A stretch of 64,000 nucleotides of DNA from a virus: UHGV virus genome UHGV-0300374, one strand, 5' to 3'. The notes below the pieces were generated by a model, which was not told the DNA's origin, did no database searches, and saw nothing but the letters and a program-made list of their open reading frames with translations. A program made the position numbers and the translations under genes. Shown here one piece after another: positions 5,545-15,005 of the stretch. Numbering within the stretch: the stretch's first letter is position 1; each line of letters begins with the position of its first letter.

Positions 5545-7130
5545 AGTAAAATTTACGAAATTTATATTTTTATAAAATTTTATCGGTTGTCCCAACCTCT
5601 GGGTCACCATCATATGTGAACAAAATATCTACCCTTCTTAACAACCTTCTTAATCTTACTCTCTATATAGTTATATAGTACTATATAGTATCTTAGTAAC
5701 TATCTAGTGGTCTTAATAGCCCTCTGTATAGCCCTTCTAAATAGCCATCTAAACACTCTTCTAACAAGCCTTCTAAACAACCTATACAATCATCTTAACC
5801 ATCTCTCTACACACTCTTAGAAGCTCCTATACACCTCTTAATCTCTATGTAAGCTATGATACTCTCTATAGGTGTTCACTAGGTATTACTAAGCCTCTAT
5901 ATAGACTGTTTTAGCCAACTTAACAGGAATATCTTTACAGACCTTATCTCACAAGGTCTAACACGGTACTAACAAGGTATCTTATAAGCCTGTTTCTACC
6001 TGTATTTTAGAAAGACTGTATAGGTAATTATTCAGAATTTTAAAATTTTTATAAAATAGGACTATCAAGTCATTTTTTAGGGTCTTTGAAGGAACTGAAA
6101 AATATCTGATTAGGATGTATATCTGCTTGGTAGCCCTTAACAGCTCCCTTACAAGTACTTTGCAAAATTTTAAAATATCCTTAACAATCTCTTAACAGTT
6201 CTCACATCTTCTTAACAACTCTTCAAAGGTCTTAACAGATTCTTAACAAGTCTAACAAGGTTGTAACAGTTTTCTAACAAGACTTAATAGGGCTTTACAG
6301 AATCTTAACAGATGACTAACAAGAGCTAACAAGTTAATTTTAAAGAGTTATTTTGTTAAGATAATTAACAAGTTTCTAACAAGTGTTTAATCTTTTTAAC
6401 AAGCTATTAACATGGTCACTATCTCTTTCTTATCGTTCCCTTTCCCTTCTTAGTGATTCCTTAAACATACCTCTTAAAAGCTCTCTATAGCTCTCTATAG
6501 CTCTTTATAAGCCCCTTTAAGCCTCTTCCTAGTATTTACCCCCCAACTGTACAGATAGCTCTTTATAGGTCTTTACAGGAGCTTTTAAGGCTATGTCAAA
6601 GACTCTTACAAGGCTTTTACGTGGTCTTAACAGAGATTTAACAAGGGGCTAACAAGTTGCTAACAAGTGCCTTAAAAGCATAACTATGTAGGGTTTGTTA
6701 AGAAATTGTTAAGAAAATGTTAAGGGGGCTAGCATTTACGTAACTTTATAGCCTCTTTTACGTAACTTTGAAGTAACTTTATAGCCCCTATAACATGTTT
6801 TTTAGTGACTAGCAAGGGGGTTGTTTAACCATTCACAAGATACTAACCAGCCTATAAGCTTACACCCTTATAAGATTCTTTTAAGCCTCTATAAAGCCCT
6901 GTAAAGAGCTTTTTAAGATAGGTTAATGCAATCCCTTAAGTTAGGTTGATAAGGCTGTTATAGAGCTTTATAGAGCGTTTAAATGGGCCATCCCCTTTCT
7001 GGGGTTATTGGCTTTTATTTAAGTTGATTTGATAAAAGGTTATAGAGTAGACTATAGAGTTATTGCTTTTAAGGTCTGATAAGATTCTGGAAAGGAAAGG
7101 GAAAGGGATTGTATAAGGATTCGATAGACG
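5545..7130. repeat. ORF-free block of short degenerate direct repeats (YTAACAAG, CTNTATAG, CTTTTAAG units) at roughly 10-11 bp spacing
   Basis: No ORF of 60 aa or more on either strand across 1.6 kb; dense recurrence of cttaacaag / ctaacaag / ctctatag / ctttatag words. Confidence 0.6.
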
Positions 7131-7156
7131 TAAAAAAGCCCCTATTTAAAGGGGCT
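7131..7156 (-). terminator. rho-independent terminator ending the minus-strand small-gene array
   Basis: Minus-strand AGCCCCTTTAAATAGGGGCT hairpin followed by TTTTTTAC. Confidence 0.5.
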
Positions 7157-7194
7157 GTTCAGGTATCTGGGGCTATTTAGCCCCGCTGCGTCGA

Positions 7195-7509: not shown

Positions 7510-7773
7510 TTACTGCATATTGGCGTATGTTGCAAGCCTTTTTTCGTTGTATTTTGTAAGAATCTCACAAGATAAAACATCATATTTTGTAACAGCTTTG
7601 CCTTTGTCGAGGTCAAAGAATCCAAATGATTTACCATCTTTGAATCCGACAACTTCGTAAGATTCTTTAATGATTTCACCATTGAACAAATCGCTTTCGA
7701 TACGGTGGAATAATGCTACATCCTCTTTGTCGGTTGCAATTTGTAAAAGAGTGGTCAGTTCGACGTGTTCCAT
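7510..7773 (-). CDS. hypothetical protein
   Basis: 87-aa ORF with upstream cassette. Confidence 0.4.
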   Translation of the reverse strand: MEHVELTTLLQIATDKEDVALFHRIESDLFNGEIIKESYEVVGFKDGKSFGFFDLDKGKAVTKYDVLSCEILTKYNEKRLATYANMQ

Positions 7774-7834
7774 TTTGAATCTCCAGTTTAGGATTTTATT
7801 TAGTGGGGGAGGTCATCCCCCGTTGATTGACAAT

Positions 7835-8365
7835 TTACAGACTTTTGATTGTCTCGTCAATATCTTTTTCAATTTCTCTTAAAGTTTTTTCTAAGTTCTT
7901 GATATTCAGCATTAACCCCTCTCCCAGTGTCTTAGCGTAACCATTTGGGCGATGGTCATAAAGCTCGATTTCTTCCACTTCGTAAAGGCTGACATTGAAG
8001 CCCCCTACCCCGTAGGCTGTGGATGAAGTGCCTTCCGGTGCTTTGTAGTACTTATTGAGATTCTTTAAAGAGCGCTCGTAAGCCATACGATAACCGTTTA
8101 ACACTGTTTTAGTGCAATCTCGTACACCTTCACACTGTACCGCATACTTTTCTAAGAACAGCGGGAGGAGTTCCGCTACCGCTTGCATGAAGTTCGATAC
8201 TACAACGGTAGAAACATTACGACGATGAACGTAATAAGCCCCGTTTTCTGATTTAGTGATAGTTGCGAAATGTTCACCATTGCAACGGAATTCATAGGTA
8301 TCTTTTACAGGCTTTGACATGACATGAATTGAACGGATGTAGTTGATAGCTTTGAACTTGTTCAT
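7835..8365 (-). CDS. hypothetical protein
   Basis: 176-aa ORF with upstream cassette. Confidence 0.45.
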   Translation of the reverse strand: MNKFKAINYIRSIHVMSKPVKDTYEFRCNGEHFATITKSENGAYYVHRRNVSTVVVSNFMQAVAELLPLFLEKYAVQCEGVRDCTKTVLNGYRMAYERSLKNLNKYYKAPEGTSSTAYGVGGFNVSLYEVEEIELYDHRPNGYAKTLGEGLMLNIKNLEKTLREIEKDIDETIKSL

Positions 8366-8589
8366 TTTAGAATCTCCTAGTTTAAGGGCTTTGTTTAGTG
8401 GGGAAGTTCATTCCCTCCCCGTTGATTAGTAATTTACTTGTTTTGATATCTGATTGCAAGCAATTTTTTAAGCTTATCTATAAAGAAATCTTTTAAGTGA
8501 ATCCCTTTTAGATAAACCCCCTCGAACAAAGTTACCAATGTCAATGGGTATTGTCAACACTTTTTTAAAAGTTTTTTATAAGTTATTGA

Positions 8590-8931
8590 TTAACTGATGA
8601 ATATTTTTTCAGGCTTTACATAGCTGATACGCTGACTTTTTAGCAGGTCATCCCAGATTAACGCGGCGATATGGGCATAACCGGATTCACGTAAAAGTTT
8701 CATTGTTTTACTTCTCGTTTCAAAACGGCTTGCATAGTACTCACTATTCAGTGTCGTTTTATTCCCTTCGTTGTCTACATGGATAATCTGCATCACTTGA
8801 AAGGGGCTTGTGTCCTCGCCTTTATTCCACTGTTCAAAGTATTTTAGGCACTGCATAGGTGACATCTTATCACTGACCTGAGTTGACCAAGATGCGCCAG
8901 CTTTATCGGTAATTACGGTTACATAAGCCAT
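8590..8931 (-). CDS. hypothetical protein
   Basis: 113-aa ORF with upstream cassette. Confidence 0.45.
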   Translation of the reverse strand: MAYVTVITDKAGASWSTQVSDKMSPMQCLKYFEQWNKGEDTSPFQVMQIIHVDNEGNKTTLNSEYYASRFETRSKTMKLLRESGYAHIAALIWDDLLKSQRISYVKPEKIFIS

Positions 8932-9021
8932 TTTTAGATTCTCCAGTTTAGGACTTTATTTAGTGGGGAAGGTCATTCCCTCCCCGTTGATTGACAATTT
9001 ACAGATTTTTATCAGGCTTGT

Positions 9022-9255
9022 CTAGTCTTTTTCAATGATAATTTCATACTGACCATCAACACTATCGAAATAGATTCCGTCGTCATCTTCTGTCTTAAAG
9101 TAACACTGAATATCATCACTTGCGGGGTAGTCTTGCCTTGCTATCTGGCAAACTTGAATAGCATTTTCTTTACTTCCTGTAAACTCTTCAAGCCCTTTAA
9201 AATCGCATGAATGACCGTTACAAATAGAAAGGATGAGGTAAACGGTTGTAAGCAT
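9022..9255 (-). CDS. hypothetical small protein with hydrophobic N-terminus
   Basis: 77-aa ORF; N-terminus MLTTVYLILSICNG; preceded by a different stem-loop (agccccttacaggggct) and RBS GGGAGG. Confidence 0.35.
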   Translation of the reverse strand: MLTTVYLILSICNGHSCDFKGLEEFTGSKENAIQVCQIARQDYPASDDIQCYFKTEDDDGIYFDSVDGQYEIIIEKD

Positions 9256-9321
9256 GATTTAAGCCTCCCAAAAGCCCCTGTAAGGGGCTAAATAGTGTTT
9301 ATAAGGTGATTGCATAGGTTT

Positions 9322-9864
9322 TTAGAAAAAGCTCTTTAAATCCTCTTCTGTGATGTTTCCTGTTAGTGTATCCATGATGTCACAAAAAACCTGAATACTG
9401 TCCGACTGTTGAACACTTTTAGCAAGAAGCTCCAGAGACTCATCAAGATAATTTAAATTTGGGTTATCCAATGAAGGAAGACAAAAAGGTGAAAACATGG
9501 CATTAAATTCAGTGATGTAAACCTTTTTAATCCAGCTTATATCAAAATACTCTGTAAAACTTGCCACGCTCGACATATTATCACAAGAATAATCATCATT
9601 CAACTCATCCTCTGGAATATCAAGTTCCAAGATAACAATATTTTGAGTTTTCATCTGAAAAGCTGCCGTTATAGTGGCATTGCCAAGAGCTTGCTGGATA
9701 CCTTCAGAGATTATTTCTTCCTCATCGTCGCCATAGATTTTATTTTCTGGATACACGTAAAAATTGCCGTCCATATCCGAACAATTCCATGCGCCTGATG
9801 GTTTATCACCGTTATTAATCAGGTTGAGGAAATTTTCTTGAGTAGTACCGTGAAAACATTTCAT
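9322..9864 (-). CDS. hypothetical acidic protein; possible minimal ADP-ribosyltransferase-like fold (weak)
   Basis: 180-aa ORF; N-terminal CFHGTTQENFLNLINNG then GNFYVYPENKIYGDDEEE, reminiscent of H-G-[ST] and aromatic motifs of H-Y-[ED] ADP-ribosyltransferases; unverified. Confidence 0.45.
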   Translation of the reverse strand: MKCFHGTTQENFLNLINNGDKPSGAWNCSDMDGNFYVYPENKIYGDDEEEIISEGIQQALGNATITAAFQMKTQNIVILELDIPEDELNDDYSCDNMSSVASFTEYFDISWIKKVYITEFNAMFSPFCLPSLDNPNLNYLDESLELLAKSVQQSDSIQVFCDIMDTLTGNITEEDLKSFF

Positions 9865-9949
9865 TTTTGAATCTCCAGTTTAGGATTTAGTGGTAAAGCT
9901 CTTTATCTGGGGCTTAAGATATCAACTTTTAAGCCCCTTGTAAAGTACT

Positions 9950-10153
9950 TTATTTGTTATTTTTGACAACTTTTAAAACTGCAAGATAACCTAAGCAATA
10001 AGAATCCCCGAAGAGAGTTCTACCCATGAAAGAGTCCTCTTTGATATCCTTTGCAGTGACAGTTTTTTCTACGCCGTGGGAAAGGACTACATCACCGACT
10101 TTAATATCTTTGATGTGTGCAGTCTCGATAGATACGCCGTTAATAATAGCCAT
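9950..10153 (-). CDS. hypothetical protein (starts MAII)
   Basis: 67-aa ORF with upstream cassette. Confidence 0.4.
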   Translation of the reverse strand: MAIINGVSIETAHIKDIKVGDVVLSHGVEKTVTAKDIKEDSFMGRTLFGDSYCLGYLAVLKVVKNNK

Positions 10154-10238
10154 TTTAGAATCTCCAGTTTAGGATTTAGTGGTAAAGCTCTTTATCTGGG
10201 GCTTAAGATATCAACTTTTAAGCCCCTTGTAAAGTACT

Positions 10239-10487
10239 TTATTGCGTCTTCTTCGTAAATATTAGTTTTACAGCGATTGTTGGAAGCTCTTCGATATTTG
10301 TAAATAGTGTTACTTTTTGAGTAGTAACCTTGTAACCGTTTTTTGCAGCGTAACCCGTAAAGCGGTTAACCGTGTAGCTATATGTTTTTGGTGTATTGTC
10401 TGGCATATGGTACAGGAAAGGTTTGCCTAAATTTTCTGGTTGCGTCAACAGTCGGCAAGTATCAGGGATATTTAAAAAATTCATCAT
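10239..10487 (-). CDS. hypothetical protein
   Basis: 82-aa ORF with upstream cassette. Confidence 0.4.
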   Translation of the reverse strand: MMNFLNIPDTCRLLTQPENLGKPFLYHMPDNTPKTYSYTVNRFTGYAAKNGYKVTTQKVTLFTNIEELPTIAVKLIFTKKTQ

Positions 10488-10550
10488 TTTAGAATCTCCA
10501 GTTTAGGACTTTATTTAGTGGGGAAGGTCATTCCCTCCCCGTTGATGTGT

Positions 10551-10579
10551 AATTTAATCTATCTAAAAATCAGTGTCAA
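10551..10579 (-). promoter_or_regulatory. sigma70-like promoter within cassette (minus strand TTGACA-N17-TAAATT)
   Basis: -35 TTGACA (10574-10579) and -10 TAAATT (10551-10556), 17-nt spacer, upstream of stem-loop and RBS for gene 10239-10487. Confidence 0.5.
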
Positions 10580-10588
10580 CAAAATTTT

Positions 10589-10993
10589 TTAAAGTTCTGC
10601 ATAAATTGCATCACAGATATTACGGAAGTCATGATTAGTCAAATTACGCTGCAACCAAGTGGCGAAAAAGTCAGCGATTGCAAAGTTAGCATCATACTCG
10701 ACAGATAGCCACACTTTAACAGCAAATCGGAACATTTTCAAATCTAACTCTTTATTCATTACCTTAGATTTGCCTAACATGTCGGACATTTCATATTGCG
10801 CACCGTCTAGCGTGATACCTGCTGCAACGTCAGCCAATGAATTTTTTACGTTTTCAACGTCTAAAATAACGCTTTGAATCTTCCCGATAATGTTGTGCAA
10901 TGTCTCATCAGGTGCTGATGACGTAATAACATTAATCCGGTTGACGGTCAAACGTGCTTTTAAAATTGATAATTCACGGTTATTAATAGCCAT
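10589..10993 (-). CDS. hypothetical protein (starts MAIN)
   Basis: 134-aa ORF with upstream cassette. Confidence 0.45.
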   Translation of the reverse strand: MAINNRELSILKARLTVNRINVITSSAPDETLHNIIGKIQSVILDVENVKNSLADVAAGITLDGAQYEMSDMLGKSKVMNKELDLKMFRFAVKVWLSVEYDANFAIADFFATWLQRNLTNHDFRNICDAIYAEL

Positions 10994-11078
10994 TTTAGAA
11001 TCTCCAATTTAGGATTTAGTGGTAAAGTTCTTTATCTGGGGCTTACTTTATCGAACTATAAGCCCCTTGTAAAGTACT

Positions 11079-11351
11079 TTATACTAAATGCAGCTTTTTA
11101 CCTTTTACTATAATGTAACTCGATGCGCTATTGCTTTGCACATCCTGATAAATTCTGCGCAAACGTCCTTCGTAGTATACTTTCCAACTGGTTGGAATCT
11201 TTTTCCCGTATCCTGTAGCAGTTTTTTGGAGTCCTGCAACTTGCCAATCCAAAATGTGCTGTTCAGCTTGTAAATCCTCGAAGTGCATTACACCGTTCAC
11301 ATAGTGGCGTAGGGTTACGTTTAAGGTGCGACCGTTGTTAGTAGTGTACAT
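11079..11351 (-). CDS. hypothetical protein
   Basis: Track ORF 11079-11393 trimmed to ATG at 11351, preceded by AGGAG RBS. Confidence 0.4.
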   Translation of the reverse strand: MYTTNNGRTLNVTLRHYVNGVMHFEDLQAEQHILDWQVAGLQKTATGYGKKIPTSWKVYYEGRLRRIYQDVQSNSASSYIIVKGKKLHLV

Positions 11352-11376
11352 TTTAAAAGCTCCTAGTTTAAGGGTT

Positions 11377-11535
11377 TTATTTTGACAGTTCACTAATTAA
11401 GACATCAAAGATTATATCATTATCTGCTACAGTTGCAACACCAGTGATATAATCAATTTCTAGGATAACAACAACTTTCGTACATAAACCGTCATCTATA
11501 TCATTCCAGACAACTTTATCACCTGCACAAAACAT
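11377..11535 (-). CDS. hypothetical small protein (52 aa), missed by the 60-aa ORF cut-off
   Basis: ATG immediately after a full variant-a cassette (RBS GGAGA); translation MFCAGDKVVWNDIDDGLCTKVVVILEIDYITGVATVADNDIIFDVLISELSK. Confidence 0.3.
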   Translation of the reverse strand: MFCAGDKVVWNDIDDGLCTKVVVILEIDYITGVATVADNDIIFDVLISELSK

Positions 11536-11599
11536 TTTCAGAATCTCCAGTTTAGGACTTTATTTAGTGGGGAAGGTCATTCCCTCCCCGTTGATGTGT

Positions 11600-11628
11600 A
11601 ATTTAACCTATCTAAAAACCAGTGTCAA
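11600..11628 (-). promoter_or_regulatory. sigma70-like promoter within cassette (minus strand TTGACA-N17-TAAATT)
   Basis: Same architecture as 10551-10579; -35 overlaps the stop codon of the upstream gene. Confidence 0.5.
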
Positions 11629-11957
11629 CAGTTTTGTTTTCGTTTGCTCAATTCTTGAACAATTACAGCATGATAGTCTTTTAAATCACTGATATTTAAA
11701 GCATTTATCAGAGAGTTATAATCATCGACTAACTGAAAATTATCTTTGAAGATGTCACTTATCTGATAGGTTTTCGCTTTATATCTGAAGCTCATCTCTA
11801 GCCGCTTTATTTGCTCATCACTGAGGCGCCCTAGAAAGCTTTCTACAAGGTTATTACTAACCTGCTGTGTGATTGACTTATTTGCTAGATTATAGGCTTT
11901 ATATGCCTTATATAGCGCGAAAATGGCAATGATTGCAGTGATACCAGTCATTAACAT
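11625..11957 (-). CDS. hypothetical membrane protein (N-terminal TM helix)
   Basis: 110-aa ORF; N-terminus MLMTGITAIIAIFALYKAYKAY. Confidence 0.4.
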   Translation of the reverse strand: MLMTGITAIIAIFALYKAYKAYNLANKSITQQVSNNLVESFLGRLSDEQIKRLEMSFRYKAKTYQISDIFKDNFQLVDDYNSLINALNISDLKDYHAVIVQELSKRKQNC

Positions 11958-12247
11958 GGTGTTTCCTCTTTACGTGATACTTTGCCATTTACAGTTATCT
12001 CATAGGATTCTAATAAATCGCTTTTAGACTTTACAGGACTTTTAAAAGTATCATCATAAATATTAACTTGCAATACAGGCTTTTTATATTCCCTACAACT
12101 ATTCCATAAGCAAATCACTACACGACGGCCTTTTATTTTGCCGTGTAACCATTCCATAACATCATGACTATTCCTTGATGTTTCAATGAAATCAATTTTG
12201 TTGAGTAATTTGCTTATACTTTCACGGACTCTATTTGATAATTTCAT
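11951..12247 (-). CDS. hypothetical protein
   Basis: 98-aa ORF with upstream cassette. Confidence 0.4.
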   Translation of the reverse strand: MKLSNRVRESISKLLNKIDFIETSRNSHDVMEWLHGKIKGRRVVICLWNSCREYKKPVLQVNIYDDTFKSPVKSKSDLLESYEITVNGKVSRKEETPC

Positions 12248-12337
12248 TTTGAATCTCCTAGTTTAAGGGTTATTTTGATAAATCTCTTTATCTGGGGCTA
12301 TCATATCAGCTTGTTAGCCCCGTGTAAAGAGGTCTAT

Positions 12338-12850
12338 TTAGTTCTTAAAGATATTCATCACTGAATCTTTTAATGCTTCCAAGCGTTCTAATACTTCAGT
12401 TTCTGCGTCTGAATTGTTCACCTCTTCTTTTAGTCTATCCTCTAAATCATCGCCGTCACTATAGCACCAATCAAAGGCATATCCTAGATAAAAACTCTCT
12501 AAAACCGTGTTGCCATTTGCATCGATAACTTTCGCGGCAAGGTTGTATTCTGAAGCCTCTAAATCTCTTTCTAGTTCTTTCTGTAAGCTGGTGTAAGCCT
12601 CTTTTGATGGGTTTTCCCGGCCTTGTTTTGCATAGTCACTTGAAAGCTGTTTAAGGCTGTAATGCAAAGGGATTGCATATTTAAAATCATTATGCTGACA
12701 GTTAGGATTTTTAACAGTCACACCGCCTTGATGGTCGTTTGTAAACTCCCAATTATCGAGATTATGGCTTGCTTCGTAGCAATTTACCGCTTCGTAGATG
12801 ATGGAAAATTTTTCTTTTACAACTTCAAAGGTAGCGTCTACAGTTTTCAT
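12338..12850 (-). CDS. hypothetical acidic protein
   Basis: 170-aa ORF with upstream cassette. Confidence 0.45.
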   Translation of the reverse strand: MKTVDATFEVVKEKFSIIYEAVNCYEASHNLDNWEFTNDHQGGVTVKNPNCQHNDFKYAIPLHYSLKQLSSDYAKQGRENPSKEAYTSLQKELERDLEASEYNLAAKVIDANGNTVLESFYLGYAFDWCYSDGDDLEDRLKEEVNNSDAETEVLERLEALKDSVMNIFKN

Positions 12851-12935
12851 TTTAGAATCTCCAGTTTAGGATTTAGTGGTAAAGCTCTTTATCTGGGGCT
12901 TAAGATATCAACTTTTAAGCCCCCTGTAAAGTACT

Positions 12936-13229
12936 TTATTTGTTAATTTTCAGCTTTGCATAACTTCTCATTGTACGAATGGGGGATGTTAATGCTACGC
13001 GTCTAATGTATGCCTTTTTCGTGTATACATTTGTCTTCCCGATAGTGTTTACACATGTAAAAAGGTTTATCGGTGAATTTTTTAACTTCAACTGTTTATC
13101 AACCTTCACGCCCCACCTTACAGCAGATTGTTTTCCGTTGTCAACCACTTTCCCGCATAACTTTTTAGCCATGATACGAGCGTCATCACGAGTCTTTGCG
13201 GTAATTACAACGTTTTTGATAATAGCCAT
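12936..13229 (-). CDS. hypothetical basic protein (starts MAII)
   Basis: Track ORF trimmed to the ATG that directly follows the cassette. Confidence 0.4.
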   Translation of the reverse strand: MAIIKNVVITAKTRDDARIMAKKLCGKVVDNGKQSAVRWGVKVDKQLKLKNSPINLFTCVNTIGKTNVYTKKAYIRRVALTSPIRTMRSYAKLKINK

Positions 13230-13315
13230 TTTTAAGTTCTCCAATTTAGGATTTAGTGTTAAAGCTCTTTATCTGGGGCTTACTTTATCGAACTATAAGC
13301 CCCTTGTAAAGTACT

Positions 13316-13699
13316 TTATTTGTTAATTTTGAAGATAGTTACATAACCATCGCTGCCGATGATTTGTGATGCTCCAGCTTTTTCTACTTGATAGCCCATA
13401 TTTTCAAGATGGTAAACAGCATCATCATAACCATATGCGCCGCCCTGATAACGTCTCTTATCACATCTTACTAATACCTTTCCACGTCCTGCCAGTGCAT
13501 TTAGTACGGCTTTTTCACTTGAAAGTGTACCATCTAACATGGTTGCCGTGTAATGGTTGATTCTATTCCCGTTTACATCATACTTAAAATTGAATGCGTG
13601 AACAACGATAATGTTACCTTTAAAATTTTCATCAAGTGACTTCTCCAGTGCGTTGCGAAAGTTGTCTTTGTTGATGAATTTAGGTGCACGATATGCCAT
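13316..13699 (-). CDS. hypothetical protein
   Basis: 127-aa ORF, first gene of the array. Confidence 0.45.
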   Translation of the reverse strand: MAYRAPKFINKDNFRNALEKSLDENFKGNIIVVHAFNFKYDVNGNRINHYTATMLDGTLSSEKAVLNALAGRGKVLVRCDKRRYQGGAYGYDDAVYHLENMGYQVEKAGASQIIGSDGYVTIFKINK

Positions 13700-13762
13700 T
13701 TTTGAATCTCCAGTTTAGGACTTTATTTAGTGGGGAAGGTCATTCCCTCCCCGTTGATGCAA

Positions 13763-13791
13763 ATACTAGATAACCACGTTCAAAGAGTCAA
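13763..13791 (-). promoter_or_regulatory. sigma70-like promoter (minus strand TTGACT-N17-TAGTAT) for the small-gene array
   Basis: -35 at 13786-13791, -10 at 13763-13768, 17-nt spacer, followed by cassette stem-loop and RBS. Confidence 0.45.
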
Positions 13792-13912
13792 GAAAAATTT
13801 TAAAAATATTTTTAGCAAAACTGTAATGAAACGGGCGCACACGACTACCACAAAACAGAACACAAATCAAGAATTATTTTTCAATCCGCTACAAATTTTT
13901 CTCTTGACTTTT

Positions 13913-13943
13913 GGGGAGAGGGGGAGTAAGAGGGGGAGAGGGG
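13913..13943 (+). other. 31-nt polypurine tract with G-quadruplex potential (GGGG AGA GGGGG AGTAAGA GGGGG AGA GGGG)
   Basis: Four G-runs of 4-5 separated by loops of 3, 7 and 3 nt in an AT-rich non-coding region. Confidence 0.5.
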
Positions 13944-13964
13944 TTGGTCTGGCTCTATATAAAA

Positions 13965-14155
13965 ACCTACCTGCACGATTCTAAAATGATTTTTCTTGCC
14001 CGACCTGAGCGGGGTCTGCACGTTTTGAAAATGAAAAAGCCCTTTGGAGATTACCTGCACAATTTGAAAATGAATTTTCTCTTTGGAGTTCAAAATTTTC
14101 TCTACAGATTTCTCTATAGAAATATACCTGCACAATTCTGAAATGAAAAAGCCCT
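13965..14155. repeat. four direct repeats, consensus ACCTGCACAATTYTGAAAATGA
   Basis: Copies near 13968, 14015, 14053 and 14125 in the non-coding region between the macro-domain gene and the small-gene array. Confidence 0.55.
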
Positions 14156-14219
14156 CCTTACCTGAAAAATTTACCAGATAAGAAAGGCTTAACCTATTGT
14201 GAATATTCTACAGAGTTTC

Positions 14220-15005
14220 TTAGTTCTTTGCGTCTAAGAAGGTAACTTCTGGTGAAGAGAAGATTGCCTCGATATCCTCATCAGTTCTTGCATAGATATA
14301 AGCTTCTGCATCACTACCAAATGTTACAGCAATTCTGTGATTGCTCTTTGACAGGTGGGTAACTAGAGCGTTACTTAGAGACATCTTTTCAACCGGAGGG
14401 TTACTTTGATGTATCTTACCTTTTCTTCGTCTGAAGAGGGTAACTGCATTATCCGTGAACACTGCTACACCTGCAAAGTATTCTGGTTCACAGTAGTTCT
14501 TCCAACCTGAGAGTAACTTGTGGTACATCTCTCCTTCATAGACATATAGATAAACATCTACACTCTTCATAACCTGATTGATGATAACTGTGACGGCTTG
14601 AGAGTCTAGTCCACCGATACCTGCACCAATCATAGGTAACCCAACTTTCTTCAACTGATTGACTTCACAGTATCTGTTAAGTTGTTTCAAAGATGACTCT
14701 AAAGCACTGTATCGGGCATCTTTACCAGTCTTAAGCTGAGTGTAAAGGTTAGCTATACGGCCTTGTTCTAAACGTGCTACAGAGAAATTACCCAGTAAAT
14801 TTTCACAGGGTTTGTGACCTATACCACCTGCATAGAGGTAAACTTCTGTATCGGTCTCATATGCTTTTGGGTAAAGTTTAGAAATCTTGTCAGCGATACC
14901 TGCACCCATTAAATTCATACAGTTGCAACCGTGACCAATAATATCAAACTTACCTTTATCAAATGCTGAGAAGATATCCCCATTGATGATTTTTACAATA
15001 CCCAT
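14220..15005 (-). CDS. macro-domain protein (TARG1/OARD1/DarG-like, ADP-ribose binding or hydrolase) with uncharacterised C-terminal domain of about 110 aa
   Basis: IINGDIF...DIIGHGCNCMNLMGAGIADKI and VGLPMIGAGIGGLD resemble the two glycine-rich ADP-ribose-binding loops of TARG1-type macrodomains. Confidence 0.6.
   Translation of the reverse strand: MGIVKIINGDIFSAFDKGKFDIIGHGCNCMNLMGAGIADKISKLYPKAYETDTEVYLYAGGIGHKPCENLLGNFSVARLEQGRIANLYTQLKTGKDARYSALESSLKQLNRYCEVNQLKKVGLPMIGAGIGGLDSQAVTVIINQVMKSVDVYLYVYEGEMYHKLLSGWKNYCEPEYFAGVAVFTDNAVTLFRRRKGKIHQSNPPVEKMSLSNALVTHLSKSNHRIAVTFGSDAEAYIYARTDEDIEAIFSSPEVTFLDAKN

What the first reader, a model, noticed from the sequence alone, without database searches (positions are those of the whole stretch)
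13913..13943. G-quadruplex-capable polypurine tract in an AT-rich intergenic region
Seen in sequence: GGGGAGAGGGGGAGTAAGAGGGGGAGAGGGG is a 31-nt pure purine run with four G-tracts of 4-5 and loops of 3, 7 and 3 nt, fitting the canonical G4 pattern. It sits on the plus strand, so the minus-strand transcript would carry the C-rich complement, immediately upstream of the accessory gene array. Such a tract is unlikely by chance in a genome of about 39% GC. It could act as a structural or regulatory element (G4 or triplex, polymerase pause, recombination hotspot).
Basis: seen in the sequence. Interest (0 to 1): 0.45.

Follow-up and report, generated by a model that had tools for sequence, protein, structure and literature searches.

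The report
G-quadruplex tract in phage control region
A real and statistically exceptional G-rich, four-stranded-DNA-capable tract sits in a Felix O1-like phage, but it is one of two interchangeable 55-base versions of a slot inside a conserved non-coding control region, so it probably modulates that region and is not essential.

Summary
The tract exists exactly at 13913-13943. It has one T, so it is 30/31 purine, not pure purine. It is a perfect 14-nt mirror repeat and scores 2.45 on G4Hunter. It is the only canonical G4 motif in the window and in the whole 87-kb genome of a 97.5% relative. None of 1000 simulated sequences contained such a motif.

The window is a Felixounavirus. The tract lies in a 520-nt non-coding region between the terminator of the macro-domain gene operon and the promoter of the terminal small-gene array. 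That region holds four direct repeats (GCAC-N6-8-AAATGA) found nowhere else in the genome and conserved across four Ounavirinae lineages. It also holds a very conserved UP/-35-like block (TTGACT) that abuts the tract.

The tract fills a 55-nt dimorphic slot:
- At least 34 related records carry the G allele, and Mooglevirus carries a G4-preserving variant.
- 140 records carry an unrelated allele that completes a good plus-strand promoter (TTGACT-17-TGnTAGCCT).
- Near-identical genomes differ only in this cassette.

Four independent assemblies break inside the tract, and one deletion variant has a junction in it. The tract is not the genome terminus, not coding and not a known RNA.

Best reading (inferred): a promoter-proximal, non-template G cluster that modulates plus-strand transcription over an origin-like or iteron-like element. 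It is dispensable.

The parts
13913..13943 (+). G tract GGGGAGAGGGGGAGTAAGAGGGGGAGAGGGG: four G runs, loops 3/7/3, G4Hunter 2.45. The C-rich complement lies on the minus strand.
13913..13926 (+). Left arm of a perfect 14-nt homopurine mirror repeat (H-DNA motif). Spacer TAA lies at 13927-13929.
   Evidence: read directly
13930..13943 (+). Right arm of the mirror repeat.
   Evidence: read directly
13913..13967 (.). 55-nt dimorphic slot. It holds allele A (G tract plus TTGGTCTGGCTCTATATAAAAACC) here. In at least 140 related records it holds allele B (ATTTCCAGATGTGGTAGCCTTGTGAGAAATGGCGACATCCCCACC...). It is the least conserved part of the intergenic region (0.64-0.68).
13870..13912 (+). Most conserved block of the intergenic region (0.91-0.97). 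It has an A/T-rich UP-like stretch and the -35-like hexamer TTGACT (13904-13909) on the + strand. It is an inverted copy of the UP/-35 of the minus-strand array promoter.
   Evidence: (I2)
13927..13932 (+). TAAGAG at the -10 position (17-nt spacer after TTGACT). It matches 3/6 and lacks the -7 T. The TA is invariant in all nine aligned Ounavirinae. Allele B has TGnTAGCCT here (an extended -10).
13970..13989 (+). Repeat unit 1: CCTGCACGATTCTAAAATGA.
14015..14034 (+). Repeat unit 2: TCTGCACGTTTTGAAAATGA.
14054..14073 (+). Repeat unit 3: CCTGCACAATTTGAAAATGA.
14127..14146 (+). Repeat unit 4: CCTGCACAATTCTGAAATGA. It overlaps the T tract of the minus-strand terminator.
14149..14190 (-). Intrinsic terminator (17-bp stem plus T tract) ending the macro-domain gene operon. 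There is no T tract on the + strand.
13763..13791 (-). Sigma-70 promoter TTGACT-17-TAGTAT for the first gene of the small-gene array. It is annotated as a promoter in phage ASO1B.
14220..15005 (-). Upstream gene: a macro-domain protein, annotated 'phosphatase' in relatives.
13316..13699 (-). First gene of the accessory small-gene array (127 aa, no Pfam family).

Best explanation
The tract is one allele (the G allele) of a 55-nt exchangeable slot. The slot sits inside a conserved, genome-unique, non-coding control region of Ounavirinae phages. That region lies between the terminator of the rII-to-macro operon and the promoter of the terminal small-gene array.

The slot begins directly after a highly conserved UP/-35 block (TTGACT) that points rightwards on the + strand. 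It ends at the first of four conserved direct repeats.

Shown:
- The anatomy described above.
- The uniqueness of the tract and of the repeats in the genome.
- The dimorphism of the slot.
- Allele B and the Erwinia-phage homologue carry good sigma-70 promoters in this position and orientation.

Inferred: the slot is the -10 and initially transcribed region of a + strand promoter whose transcription runs across the four repeats. In the G allele the non-template strand is a G cluster. Any transcription, or negative supercoiling from the back-to-back array promoter, would favour a stable G-rich-RNA/C-rich-DNA hybrid (R-loop) with the displaced strand folding into a G4 or H-DNA. That would gate or modulate the promoter and open the DNA next to the repeats.

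I take the repeats to be protein-binding iterons of a cis-acting site, most likely a replication origin activated by this transcription.

The G tract itself is a modulatory, dispensable variant, not an essential element.
For: - The tract is exceptional and G4/H-DNA capable.
- The four GCAC-N6-8-AAATGA units occur only here, both in the window and in a complete related genome. They are conserved in Felixounavirus, Mooglevirus, Kolesnikvirus, Hafnia phage Zyzzx and a divergent 88-kb relative.
- The block 13870-13912 (UP-like plus TTGACT) is the most conserved part of the region, while the slot is the least conserved.
- TTGACT plus 17 nt plus TA is kept in both alleles. Allele B reads TTGACT-17-TAGCCT with TG at -15/-14, and natural variants keep TGnTAnnCT.
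- phiEa104 has canonical divergent promoters: + TTGACC-18-TATACT and - TTGACT-17-TATATT.
- G-rich patches lie on the same (+) strand between promoter and repeats in Mooglevirus and Kolesnikvirus.
- A precise cassette swap between otherwise 97-99% identical genomes shows the two alleles are interchangeable modules.
- Assemblies break inside the tract.
- The units are DnaA-box-like (8/9 to TTATNCACA) in phiEa104 and the divergent relative L099.
- There is no conserved ORF, no RNA-structure signal and no Rfam family. This favours a DNA-level or transcription-level role.
Against: - In this allele the -10 hexamer is TAAGAG (3/6, no -7 T), so the promoter may be weak or silent here. The scan tool does not call it.
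- 140 related records lack the tract, so whatever the locus does, it does without a G4.
- No + strand terminator or product is evident. The transcript would run antisense into the macro gene.
- No transcription, replication or structure data exist for this locus in the literature searched.
- The DnaA-box resemblance is poor in Felixounavirus itself (5-6/9).
- A + strand promoter is not obvious in Zyzzx or L099.
- GC skew cannot locate an origin, because it follows gene orientation.
Confidence: 0.35

Rival explanations
1. Functionally neutral low-complexity allele. The slot is a tolerant spacer between two constrained elements. The G tract arose by slippage or recombination and persists by hitch-hiking. 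Its G4 potential has no biological role.
For: The slot is the least conserved part of the region. An unrelated allele replaces the tract in 140 records from the same hosts. The tract is no better conserved between genera than the region's average.
Against: A motif this improbable (0/1000 simulations) is retained across Felixounavirus and Mooglevirus with all four G runs kept. A G-rich patch lies on the same strand in Kolesnikvirus. Both alleles have the same length (55 nt) and keep TA at the same register, which argues for constraint on the slot.
Confidence: 0.22
2. Recombination or instability hotspot. G4/H-DNA formation stalls replication and creates breaks that drive cassette exchange and deletions at the head of the mosaic accessory-gene array. 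This would be analogous to the pilE G4 of Neisseria.
For: The LF110P2 variant has a 640-bp deletion (window 13279-13917) with one junction in the tract and the other at another G run. There is a precise 55-nt allele swap between near-identical genomes. Insertions of extra gene cassettes lie within about 200 nt in ekra and KhF3. Assemblies break at the tract.
Against: There is only one deletion example. The mosaicism of the array can be explained by its repeated promoter/5'UTR modules. Allele-B phages have equally mosaic arrays. No directionality or donor copies exist as in pilE/pilS.
Confidence: 0.13
3. Rho-utilisation (rut) site. On the minus-strand RNA the tract is CCCCUCUCCCCCUCUUACUCCCCCUCUCCCC. 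It would load Rho and act as a back-up terminator insulating the array from read-through of the upstream operon.
For: Over 66 nt (13900-13965) the minus-strand RNA would be 41% C and 9% G. Within the tract it is 71% C and 0% G. It lies in an untranslated stretch downstream of a terminator.
Against: A strong 17-bp intrinsic terminator lies 200 nt upstream, so little RNA should reach it. Allele B is G-rich on that strand over the corresponding part, so the function would not be conserved. The Kolesnikvirus patch is much shorter.
Confidence: 0.08
4. The repeats encode a tandem-repeat decoy RNA, like a type III antitoxin or pseudo-ToxI. It would be transcribed from the + strand promoter, and the tract would be its 5' leader.
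For: The architecture is promoter, then 37-45-nt direct repeats, then a hairpin. In phiEa104 the units are a regular 39/37/37-nt array. Each unit carries an invariant A-rich AAAAUGA. Type III toxins cut A-rich sites such as AA/AU, and phage PhiTE carries a pseudo-ToxI (PMC5086642). One true toxIN-like locus shares the GCAC-N6-AAAATGA core.
Against: In this window the units are irregular (45/39/73 nt) with unrelated spacers. There is no toxin gene, no Rfam ToxI hit, no predicted structure and no similarity in E. coli genomes or plasmids. 31 of the 32 bacterial pattern hits are coding repeats or chance.
Confidence: 0.07
5. Part of a small protein-coding gene: the + strand ORF 13911-14141 (Gly/Arg-rich N-terminus) or the minus-strand ORFs annotated in FelixO1 and wV8.
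For: ORFs are listed mechanically and are annotated in several records.
Against: Frame and strand differ between close relatives. wV8 has a 2-nt indel. Unit spacing is 39/37/37 in phiEa104. Zyzzx has no ORF of 30 aa or more.
Confidence: 0.02
6. Genome terminus or packaging site. The records and contigs that end in the tract would reflect physical DNA ends.
For: EC106, LMP34, L018 and L019 end inside the tract.
Against: Experimentally determined direct terminal repeats of Felixounavirus (608 bp in UAB_Phi87, PMC4837284; 618-bp sequence of UAB_69, PMC11350853) map to window 6127-6731, 7.2 kb away. The break positions differ by up to 13 nt. One contig runs into a Nextera adapter. EC106 lacks about 200 nt. 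These are assembly failures, not physical ends.
Confidence: 0.01

Closest known systems
pilE-associated G-quadruplex with its adjacent sRNA promoter in Neisseria gonorrhoeae (Cahoon and Seifert; cited from memory)
   Same: A G4 motif lies on the non-template strand immediately next to or overlapping a promoter, so that transcription starts in or at the G runs. It sits upstream of a highly variable locus.
   Different: There is no evidence here of transcription, RecA dependence or silent donor copies. The tract here is longer, a mirror repeat, and absent from most relatives.
Transcription/R-loop-primed origins: ColE1 RNA II (G-rich RNA with C-rich template), mitochondrial CSB II G4, T4 oriF/oriG (promoter plus unwinding element), T7 primary origin (promoters plus AT-rich region). 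All cited from memory.
   Same: A promoter is directed into a non-coding region, with a G cluster on the non-template strand close to the start. It is a unique cis site in the genome.
   Different: No replication data exist. The -10 of this allele is poor. The G cluster is missing in allele B. No RNase H or primer-processing site can be identified.
Iteron-type origins (lambda ori, P1 oriR, plasmids) and DnaA-box clusters
   Same: Four direct repeats of a roughly 20-nt core in an AT-rich non-coding region, unique in the genome. The units are near-consensus DnaA boxes in Kolesnikvirus and L099.
   Different: Spacing is wide and irregular (39-73 nt). The DnaA-box match is only 5-6/9 in this phage. 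No initiator gene is adjacent.
Injection-stop (iss) region of phage T5 (Davison, bioRxiv 10.1101/866236)
   Same: A conserved, repeat-rich non-coding region about 8% of the genome length from a terminal repeat. It borders a mosaic block of small early genes and is better conserved than those genes. It contains DnaA-box-like elements.
   Different: Two-step injection is unknown in Felix O1-like phages. There are no A1/A2 homologues. The T5 region is 1.2-1.7 kb with palindromes and lies inside the terminal repeat. Which end of this genome enters first is unknown.
Type III antitoxin RNA arrays (ToxI, CptI, TenpI) and phage pseudo-ToxI (PMC5086642, PMC3475682)
   Same: Promoter, then direct repeats of about 36-45 nt with an A-rich invariant site, then a hairpin.
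   Different: The repeats are not near-identical tandem copies in this phage. There is no toxin gene, no Rfam match and no host homologue.

Membership tests
Canonical G-quadruplex motif (PQS) | Four runs of at least 3 G separated by loops of 1-7 nt on one strand | tested here: met
   Runs of 4, 5, 5, 4 and loops of 3, 7, 3
Canonical G-quadruplex motif (PQS) | G4Hunter score above about 1.5 | tested here: met
   2.45 over the tract, the highest in the window
Canonical G-quadruplex motif (PQS) | K+-dependent folding (CD, thermal difference spectrum, ThT, polymerase stop) | not testable with these tools
   Only indirect evidence: four assemblies break inside the tract
H-DNA (intramolecular triplex) motif | Homopurine-homopyrimidine mirror repeat with arms of at least 10 nt and a short spacer | tested here: met
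   Perfect 14-nt arms with the 3-nt spacer TAA
H-DNA (intramolecular triplex) motif | Supercoil- or pH-dependent single-strandedness (S1, KMnO4 probing) | not testable with these tools
   Not testable here
Sigma-70 promoter (+ strand) | -35 hexamer close to TTGACA with an A/T-rich upstream element | tested here: met
   TTGACT at 13904-13909 after AAATTTTTCTC. The block conservation is 0.91-0.97
Sigma-70 promoter (+ strand) | -10 hexamer TAnnnT, 16-18 nt downstream | tested here: not met
   TAAGAG (no -7 T) in this allele, not called by the scan. The feature is met in allele B (TGnTAGCCT) and in phiEa104 (TATACT)
Sigma-70 promoter (+ strand) | Mapped transcription start | not testable with these tools
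   No transcriptome data found
Rho-utilisation site (minus-strand RNA) | C-rich, G-poor untranslated RNA stretch of about 60-80 nt | tested here: inconclusive
   41% C and 9% G over 66 nt. It lies behind a strong intrinsic terminator, and the composition is reversed in allele B
Iteron or DnaA-box replication origin | Several direct repeats confined to one locus of the genome | tested here: met
   Four units, only here in the 64-kb window and in the 87-kb ekra genome
Iteron or DnaA-box replication origin | Match to the DnaA box TTATNCACA | tested here: inconclusive
   5-6/9 in this window. 8/9 in phiEa104 (CTATGCACA, TTATGCACG) and 7-8/9 in L099 (CTATCCACG)
Iteron or DnaA-box replication origin | Initiation of replication at the site | not testable with these tools
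   GC skew follows gene orientation and is uninformative
Type III antitoxin RNA array | Near-identical tandem repeats, then a terminator, then a ToxN/CptN/TenpN gene on the same strand | tested here: not met
   Spacing is 45/39/73 nt with unrelated spacers. The next gene is on the opposite strand and is a macro-domain protein. No Rfam ToxI hit
Genome terminus / direct terminal repeat | Coincides with the experimentally defined DTR of the genus | tested here: not met
   The UAB_69 DTR maps to window 6127-6731
Protein-coding gene | Reading frame conserved among relatives | tested here: not met
Known structured RNA family | Rfam covariance-model match or significant folding energy | tested here: not met
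   No hit at gathering threshold. Only chance-level hits at E of 0.86 or higher. Folding z-scores are +0.53 and -0.75

The most novel reading that the evidence does not exclude
The 520-nt region, meaning the four genome-unique repeats plus the promoter-proximal G cluster, is a previously undescribed cis-acting element of Ounavirinae. It would be either the phage replication origin, fired by an R-loop/G4-forming transcript, or a T5-like injection-stop or entry-control signal that separates a terminal 7-kb (8%) block of early host-takeover genes from the rest of the genome. The G4 and non-G4 alleles would then be a natural on/off or strength polymorphism of that element.
Probability: 0.2. Interest if true: 0.75.

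Novelty: new member of a known kind. Interest (0 to 1): 0.45.

Why it matters
Felix O1-like phages are used for Salmonella and E. coli typing, biocontrol and therapy. Their replication origin, temporal regulation and the role of their long non-coding regions are nevertheless unknown.

This locus is the only place in the genome with iteron-like repeats, and it carries the genome's only G4 motif. Nature supplies two alleles, with and without the G4, in otherwise near-identical genomes. That makes it a ready-made experiment on whether a G-quadruplex or R-loop matters in a phage.

There is also a practical consequence. The tract breaks short-read assemblies, so several 'complete' database genomes start, stop or lack sequence here.

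Tried and rejected
- **Genome terminus or pac site.** Rejected: the published DTR maps 7.2 kb away.
- **Protein-coding ORFs on either strand.** Rejected: frames are not conserved.
- **Structured ncRNA.** No Rfam family and no folding signal on either strand.
- **tRNA or tmRNA.** None found.
- **T4-type late promoter (TATAAATA) in the CTCTATAnAAA extensions of units 1 and 4.** No enrichment in the genome.
- **Units as sigma-70 promoters.** This holds only in phiEa104 (TTGCCA-17-TAAAAT). It does not hold in this window when the hexamers are checked by hand.
- **Sigma-54, IHF, CRP and ArgR consensus comparisons by eye.** No convincing match.
- **Host homologue of the repeats.** None in 5,426 E. 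coli genomes or 72,556 plasmids.
- **Two-unit pattern scan of 185,579 bacterial and archaeal genomes.** It gave 32 hits, nearly all coding repeats or unrelated arrays. Only one was next to a ToxN-like gene, so it gives no support for antitoxin mimicry.
- **My first G4 pattern search.** It was mis-specified (a fixed 3-nt last loop with four-G runs) and returned nothing. I replaced it with a script.
- **Literature.** I found no mention of this tract, the repeats, an origin or a transcriptome map for Felix O1-like phages. PhageMaP supplementary data for Bas63 intergenic insertions are not held.

Full report
**Identity of the window.** The window is a Felix O1-like phage (Felixounavirus, Ounavirinae). 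The 1.4 kb around the finding is 97-98% identical to phages LF110P2, ekra and UAB_Phi87, and 243 phage records match it. Annotation of relatives gives the following gene order on the minus strand: nicotinamide phosphoribosyltransferase, rIIA, rIIB, lysin, polynucleotide kinase, spanins, small ORFs, a macro-domain 'phosphatase', a long non-coding gap, and then about 14 small hypothetical genes that each have their own promoter. Pfam confirms the macro domain in 14220-15005(-).

**Observation.** The 31-mer is at 13913-13943 exactly as quoted. It contains one T (13927), so it is not a pure purine run. It is a perfect mirror repeat: GGGGAGAGGGGGAG-TAA-GAGGGGGAGAGGGG. It is therefore a triplex (H-DNA) motif as well as a G4 motif. 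It is the only canonical G4 motif on either strand of the window and of the complete genome of the close relative ekra. Its G4Hunter score is 2.45, against |1.52| for the runner-up. None of 1000 order-1 Markov simulations of the window produced a four-run G>=4 motif.

**Anatomy of the surroundings.** The intergenic region 13700-14219 is read here in the direction of the flanking genes (minus strand). It starts with a strong intrinsic terminator (14190-14149). Four direct repeats follow, whose + strand form is CCTGCACRATTYKRAAATGA (13970, 14015, 14054, 14127). Next come the C-rich complement of the tract, then a conserved A/T-rich block, and finally the sigma-70 promoter TTGACT-17-TAGTAT (13791-13763) of the first array gene. 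With up to 3 mismatches the repeat occurs only at these four places in 64 kb, against 0.04 expected. Its core, GCAC-N6-8-AAATGA, occurs only here in the whole ekra genome.

**Conservation.** An alignment of nine Ounavirinae shows the repeat units in four groups: Felixounavirus, Mooglevirus, Kolesnikvirus (Erwinia phage phiEa104) and Hafnia phage Zyzzx. Unit spacing differs between them: 45/39/73 nt here, 39/37/37 in phiEa104 and 53/43/55 in Zyzzx. The only DNA-level similarity between this region and the Erwinia phages is over the units.

A profile over 29 Felixounavirus and Mooglevirus loci gives the following:
- The block 13870-13912, just left of the tract, is the most conserved (0.91-0.97).
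- The units score 0.93-0.96.
- The tract's own slot (13913-13960) is the least conserved (0.64-0.68).

**Two alleles.** The 55 nt between TTGACTTTT and the first unit come in two forms. Allele A is the G tract followed by TTGGTCTGGCTCTCTATAAAAACC. It occurs in this window, FelixO1, wV8, UAB_Phi87 and HY02, and blastn finds it in at least 34 records (low-complexity masking probably hides more). Mooglevirus has the variant GGGAGGAAGGGGAGTAAGAGGGGATGGTGGGG. That variant differs at about nine positions but keeps four G runs (G4Hunter 2.09). phiEa104 has GGTAGAGGGGAGGGTGGGCG (1.95).

Allele B, (A/C)TTT(T/C)CAGATGTGGTAGCCTTGTGAGAAATGGCGACATCCCCACC(TACACCCACC), is unrelated in sequence and mostly the same length. 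It is found in 140 records from the same hosts. IMG/VR contig L006 and phage phiWec177 are 97-99% identical for about 370 nt to the left and more than 1 kb to the right, yet one carries A and the other B. This is a precise cassette exchange. The tract is therefore dispensable, but the slot is a defined module.

**What the slot looks like.** On the + strand the conserved block ends in AAATTTTTCTCTTGACT. This is an inverted copy of the UP/-35 part of the array promoter (inverted repeat I2). Seventeen bases after TTGACT, every aligned genome has TA.
- In allele B this gives TTGACT-17-TAGCCT preceded by TG at -15/-14. Natural variants (TGTTAGCCT, TGGTAGTCT) keep TGnTAnnCT. By established promoter rules this is a credible extended -10 promoter.
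- In phiEa104 the scan finds back-to-back canonical promoters: + TTGACC-18-TATACT and - TTGACT-17-TATATT.
- In this window the same register gives TTGACT-17-TAAGAG (3/6, lacking the -7 T). Here the G tract forms the spacer, the -10 and the discriminator. The scan does not call it.

So a rightward transcription unit over the four repeats is plausible for most of the subfamily. For this allele it is doubtful or weak.

**Things it is not.**
- It is not the genome end. The experimentally determined terminal repeat of the genus (608 bp in UAB_Phi87, PMC4837284; 618-bp sequence of UAB_69, PMC11350853) maps to window 6127-6731. That is 7.2 kb from the tract, with the small-gene array in between.
- It is not coding. 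ORFs across the region change frame and strand between close relatives, and they vanish in Zyzzx.
- It is not a known or obviously structured RNA.
- The repeats have no homologue in E. coli chromosomes or plasmids.
- A two-unit pattern scan of bacterial genomes returned mostly coding repeats. Only one hit was a ToxN-like locus. The tempting comparison with type III antitoxin arrays (PMC5086642) is therefore not supported.

**Circumstantial signs of an unusual structure.** Four independent assemblies stop inside the tract:
- GenBank EC106 starts at the equivalent of 13921 and lacks about 200 nt on the other side.
- LMP34 ends at the equivalent of 13934.
- IMG/VR contig L018 ends at 13924.
- IMG/VR contig L019 ends at 13925 and runs straight into a Nextera adapter.

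The break positions differ, and the true termini lie elsewhere, so these are sequencing or assembly failures at the tract. Separately, a sequenced variant of LF110P2 has lost window 13279-13917, with one junction in the tract and the other at a GGGG run.

**Mechanism.**
- Shown: the motif, its uniqueness, its position against a conserved -35-like block, the dimorphism, and the conserved genome-unique repeats next to it.
- Inferred: the slot is the -10 and early transcribed part of a + strand promoter aimed at the repeats. With the G allele, transcription, or supercoiling from the divergent array promoter, would favour an R-loop with a G4 or triplex on the displaced G strand. That would modulate the promoter and open the DNA beside the repeats. 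I take the repeats to be iterons of a cis-acting site, most likely a replication origin.
- Supporting leads: G-rich patches lie on the same strand in three genera. The units are DnaA-box-like in phiEa104 and in the divergent relative L099 (CTATGCACA, TTATGCACG, CTATCCACG).
- Against: the poor -10 here, the absence of the tract in most relatives, and the lack of any experimental data.

My confidence in this reading is about 0.35. The rivals are a neutral allele (0.22), a recombination hotspot (0.13), a rut site (0.08) and a decoy RNA leader (0.07).

**Comparison with known systems.** The nearest parallels are listed below.
- From memory: the Neisseria pilE G4 with its adjoining sRNA promoter, and R-loop or transcription-primed origins (ColE1, mitochondrial CSB II, T4 oriF/oriG, T7).
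- Iteron or DnaA-box origins.
- By position, the T5 injection-stop region: a conserved repeat-rich non-coding stretch about 8% from the end, bordering mosaic early genes (bioRxiv 10.1101/866236).

Membership in any of these cannot be claimed. The sequence criteria for G4 and H-DNA are met. The -10 criterion for a promoter is not met in this allele. The type III, terminus, coding and Rfam tests failed.

**Verdict.** This is a genuine, improbable G4/H-DNA motif and a new example of a known kind of sequence element. It is interesting mainly because of where it sits and because it is naturally dimorphic. Its function is unproven and it is not essential to the genus.

Noticed in passing
window 6127-6731: Homologue (85% identity) of the published 618-bp direct terminal repeat of Felixounavirus UAB_69, so the physical genome ends lie here. 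It is packed with TGTTA(A/G) repeats: 15 copies on the minus strand in 6001-6500.
   Followed up: partly
window 13913-13943 equivalents in ON210138.1 (EC106), MK482690.1 (LMP34), and IMG/VR contigs L018 and L019: Four database assemblies start or end inside the tract. L019 runs into a Nextera adapter, and EC106, labelled a complete genome, lacks about 200 nt here. The tract is a practical assembly hazard.
   Followed up: yes
L009 (OZ035782.1) versus window 13279-13917: A sequenced variant of Felixounavirus LF110P2 has a 640-bp deletion. It removes the first array gene, its promoter and the first 5 nt of the tract. The junction lies between two G runs (CTGGGGC and the tract).
   Followed up: partly
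L099:600-1030 (IMGVR_UViG_3300045988_063805, 88 kb): In a divergent relative the units (CTATGCACG..., CTATCCACG...) lie directly beside a cluster of eight TGTTAA repeats like those of the terminal repeat, next to a 148-aa macro-domain gene. No small-gene array lies between the units and the TGTTAA cluster.
   Followed up: partly
window 13732-13752 and about 10530-10560, with further copies through 7700-13300: Repeated promoter/5'UTR modules (annotated DR_1-DR_9 in wV8) precede the small array genes. They include the hairpin GGGGAGGGAATGACCTTCCCC after the -10. These repeats explain many extra BLAST places per record and probably drive the mosaicism of the array.
   Followed up: partly
between window about 13693 and 13731; L002 (KhF3) and ekra 6508-7000: Some relatives (ekra, KhF3, ASO1B) carry an extra cassette of about 480 bp with a 62-aa gene (VOG7859). 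It is inserted between the first array gene and the conserved non-coding region.
   Followed up: no
window 7089-7108: A second polypurine run, GGAAAGGAAAGGGAAAGGGA (20 nt, the longest in the window), lies about 360 nt from the terminal-repeat homologue.
   Followed up: no
L016:2025-2090 (phiEa104): In the Erwinia phage, the tail of one unit (TTGCCA) and the (T/G)AAAAT of the next unit form sigma-70-like promoter matches (10/12 and 9/12). This is not the case in Felixounavirus.
   Followed up: partly
L054:about 7128-7181 (Acetatifactor MAG): The pattern scan turned up a bacterial locus with 37-nt tandem repeats (GGTGATGCACAGCCCTAAAATGAGCGAGTGAATAGTG), a hairpin and a downstream ORF that, from memory of the ToxN sequence, resembles ToxN/AbiQ. 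[quoted passage not shown]
   Followed up: no
allele B, e.g. L026:3513-3612 (minus strand): The non-G allele is C-rich on the + strand at its right end (CATCCCCACCTACACCCACC). It therefore carries weak G runs on the opposite strand, so the strand asymmetry is reversed between the two alleles.
   Followed up: no
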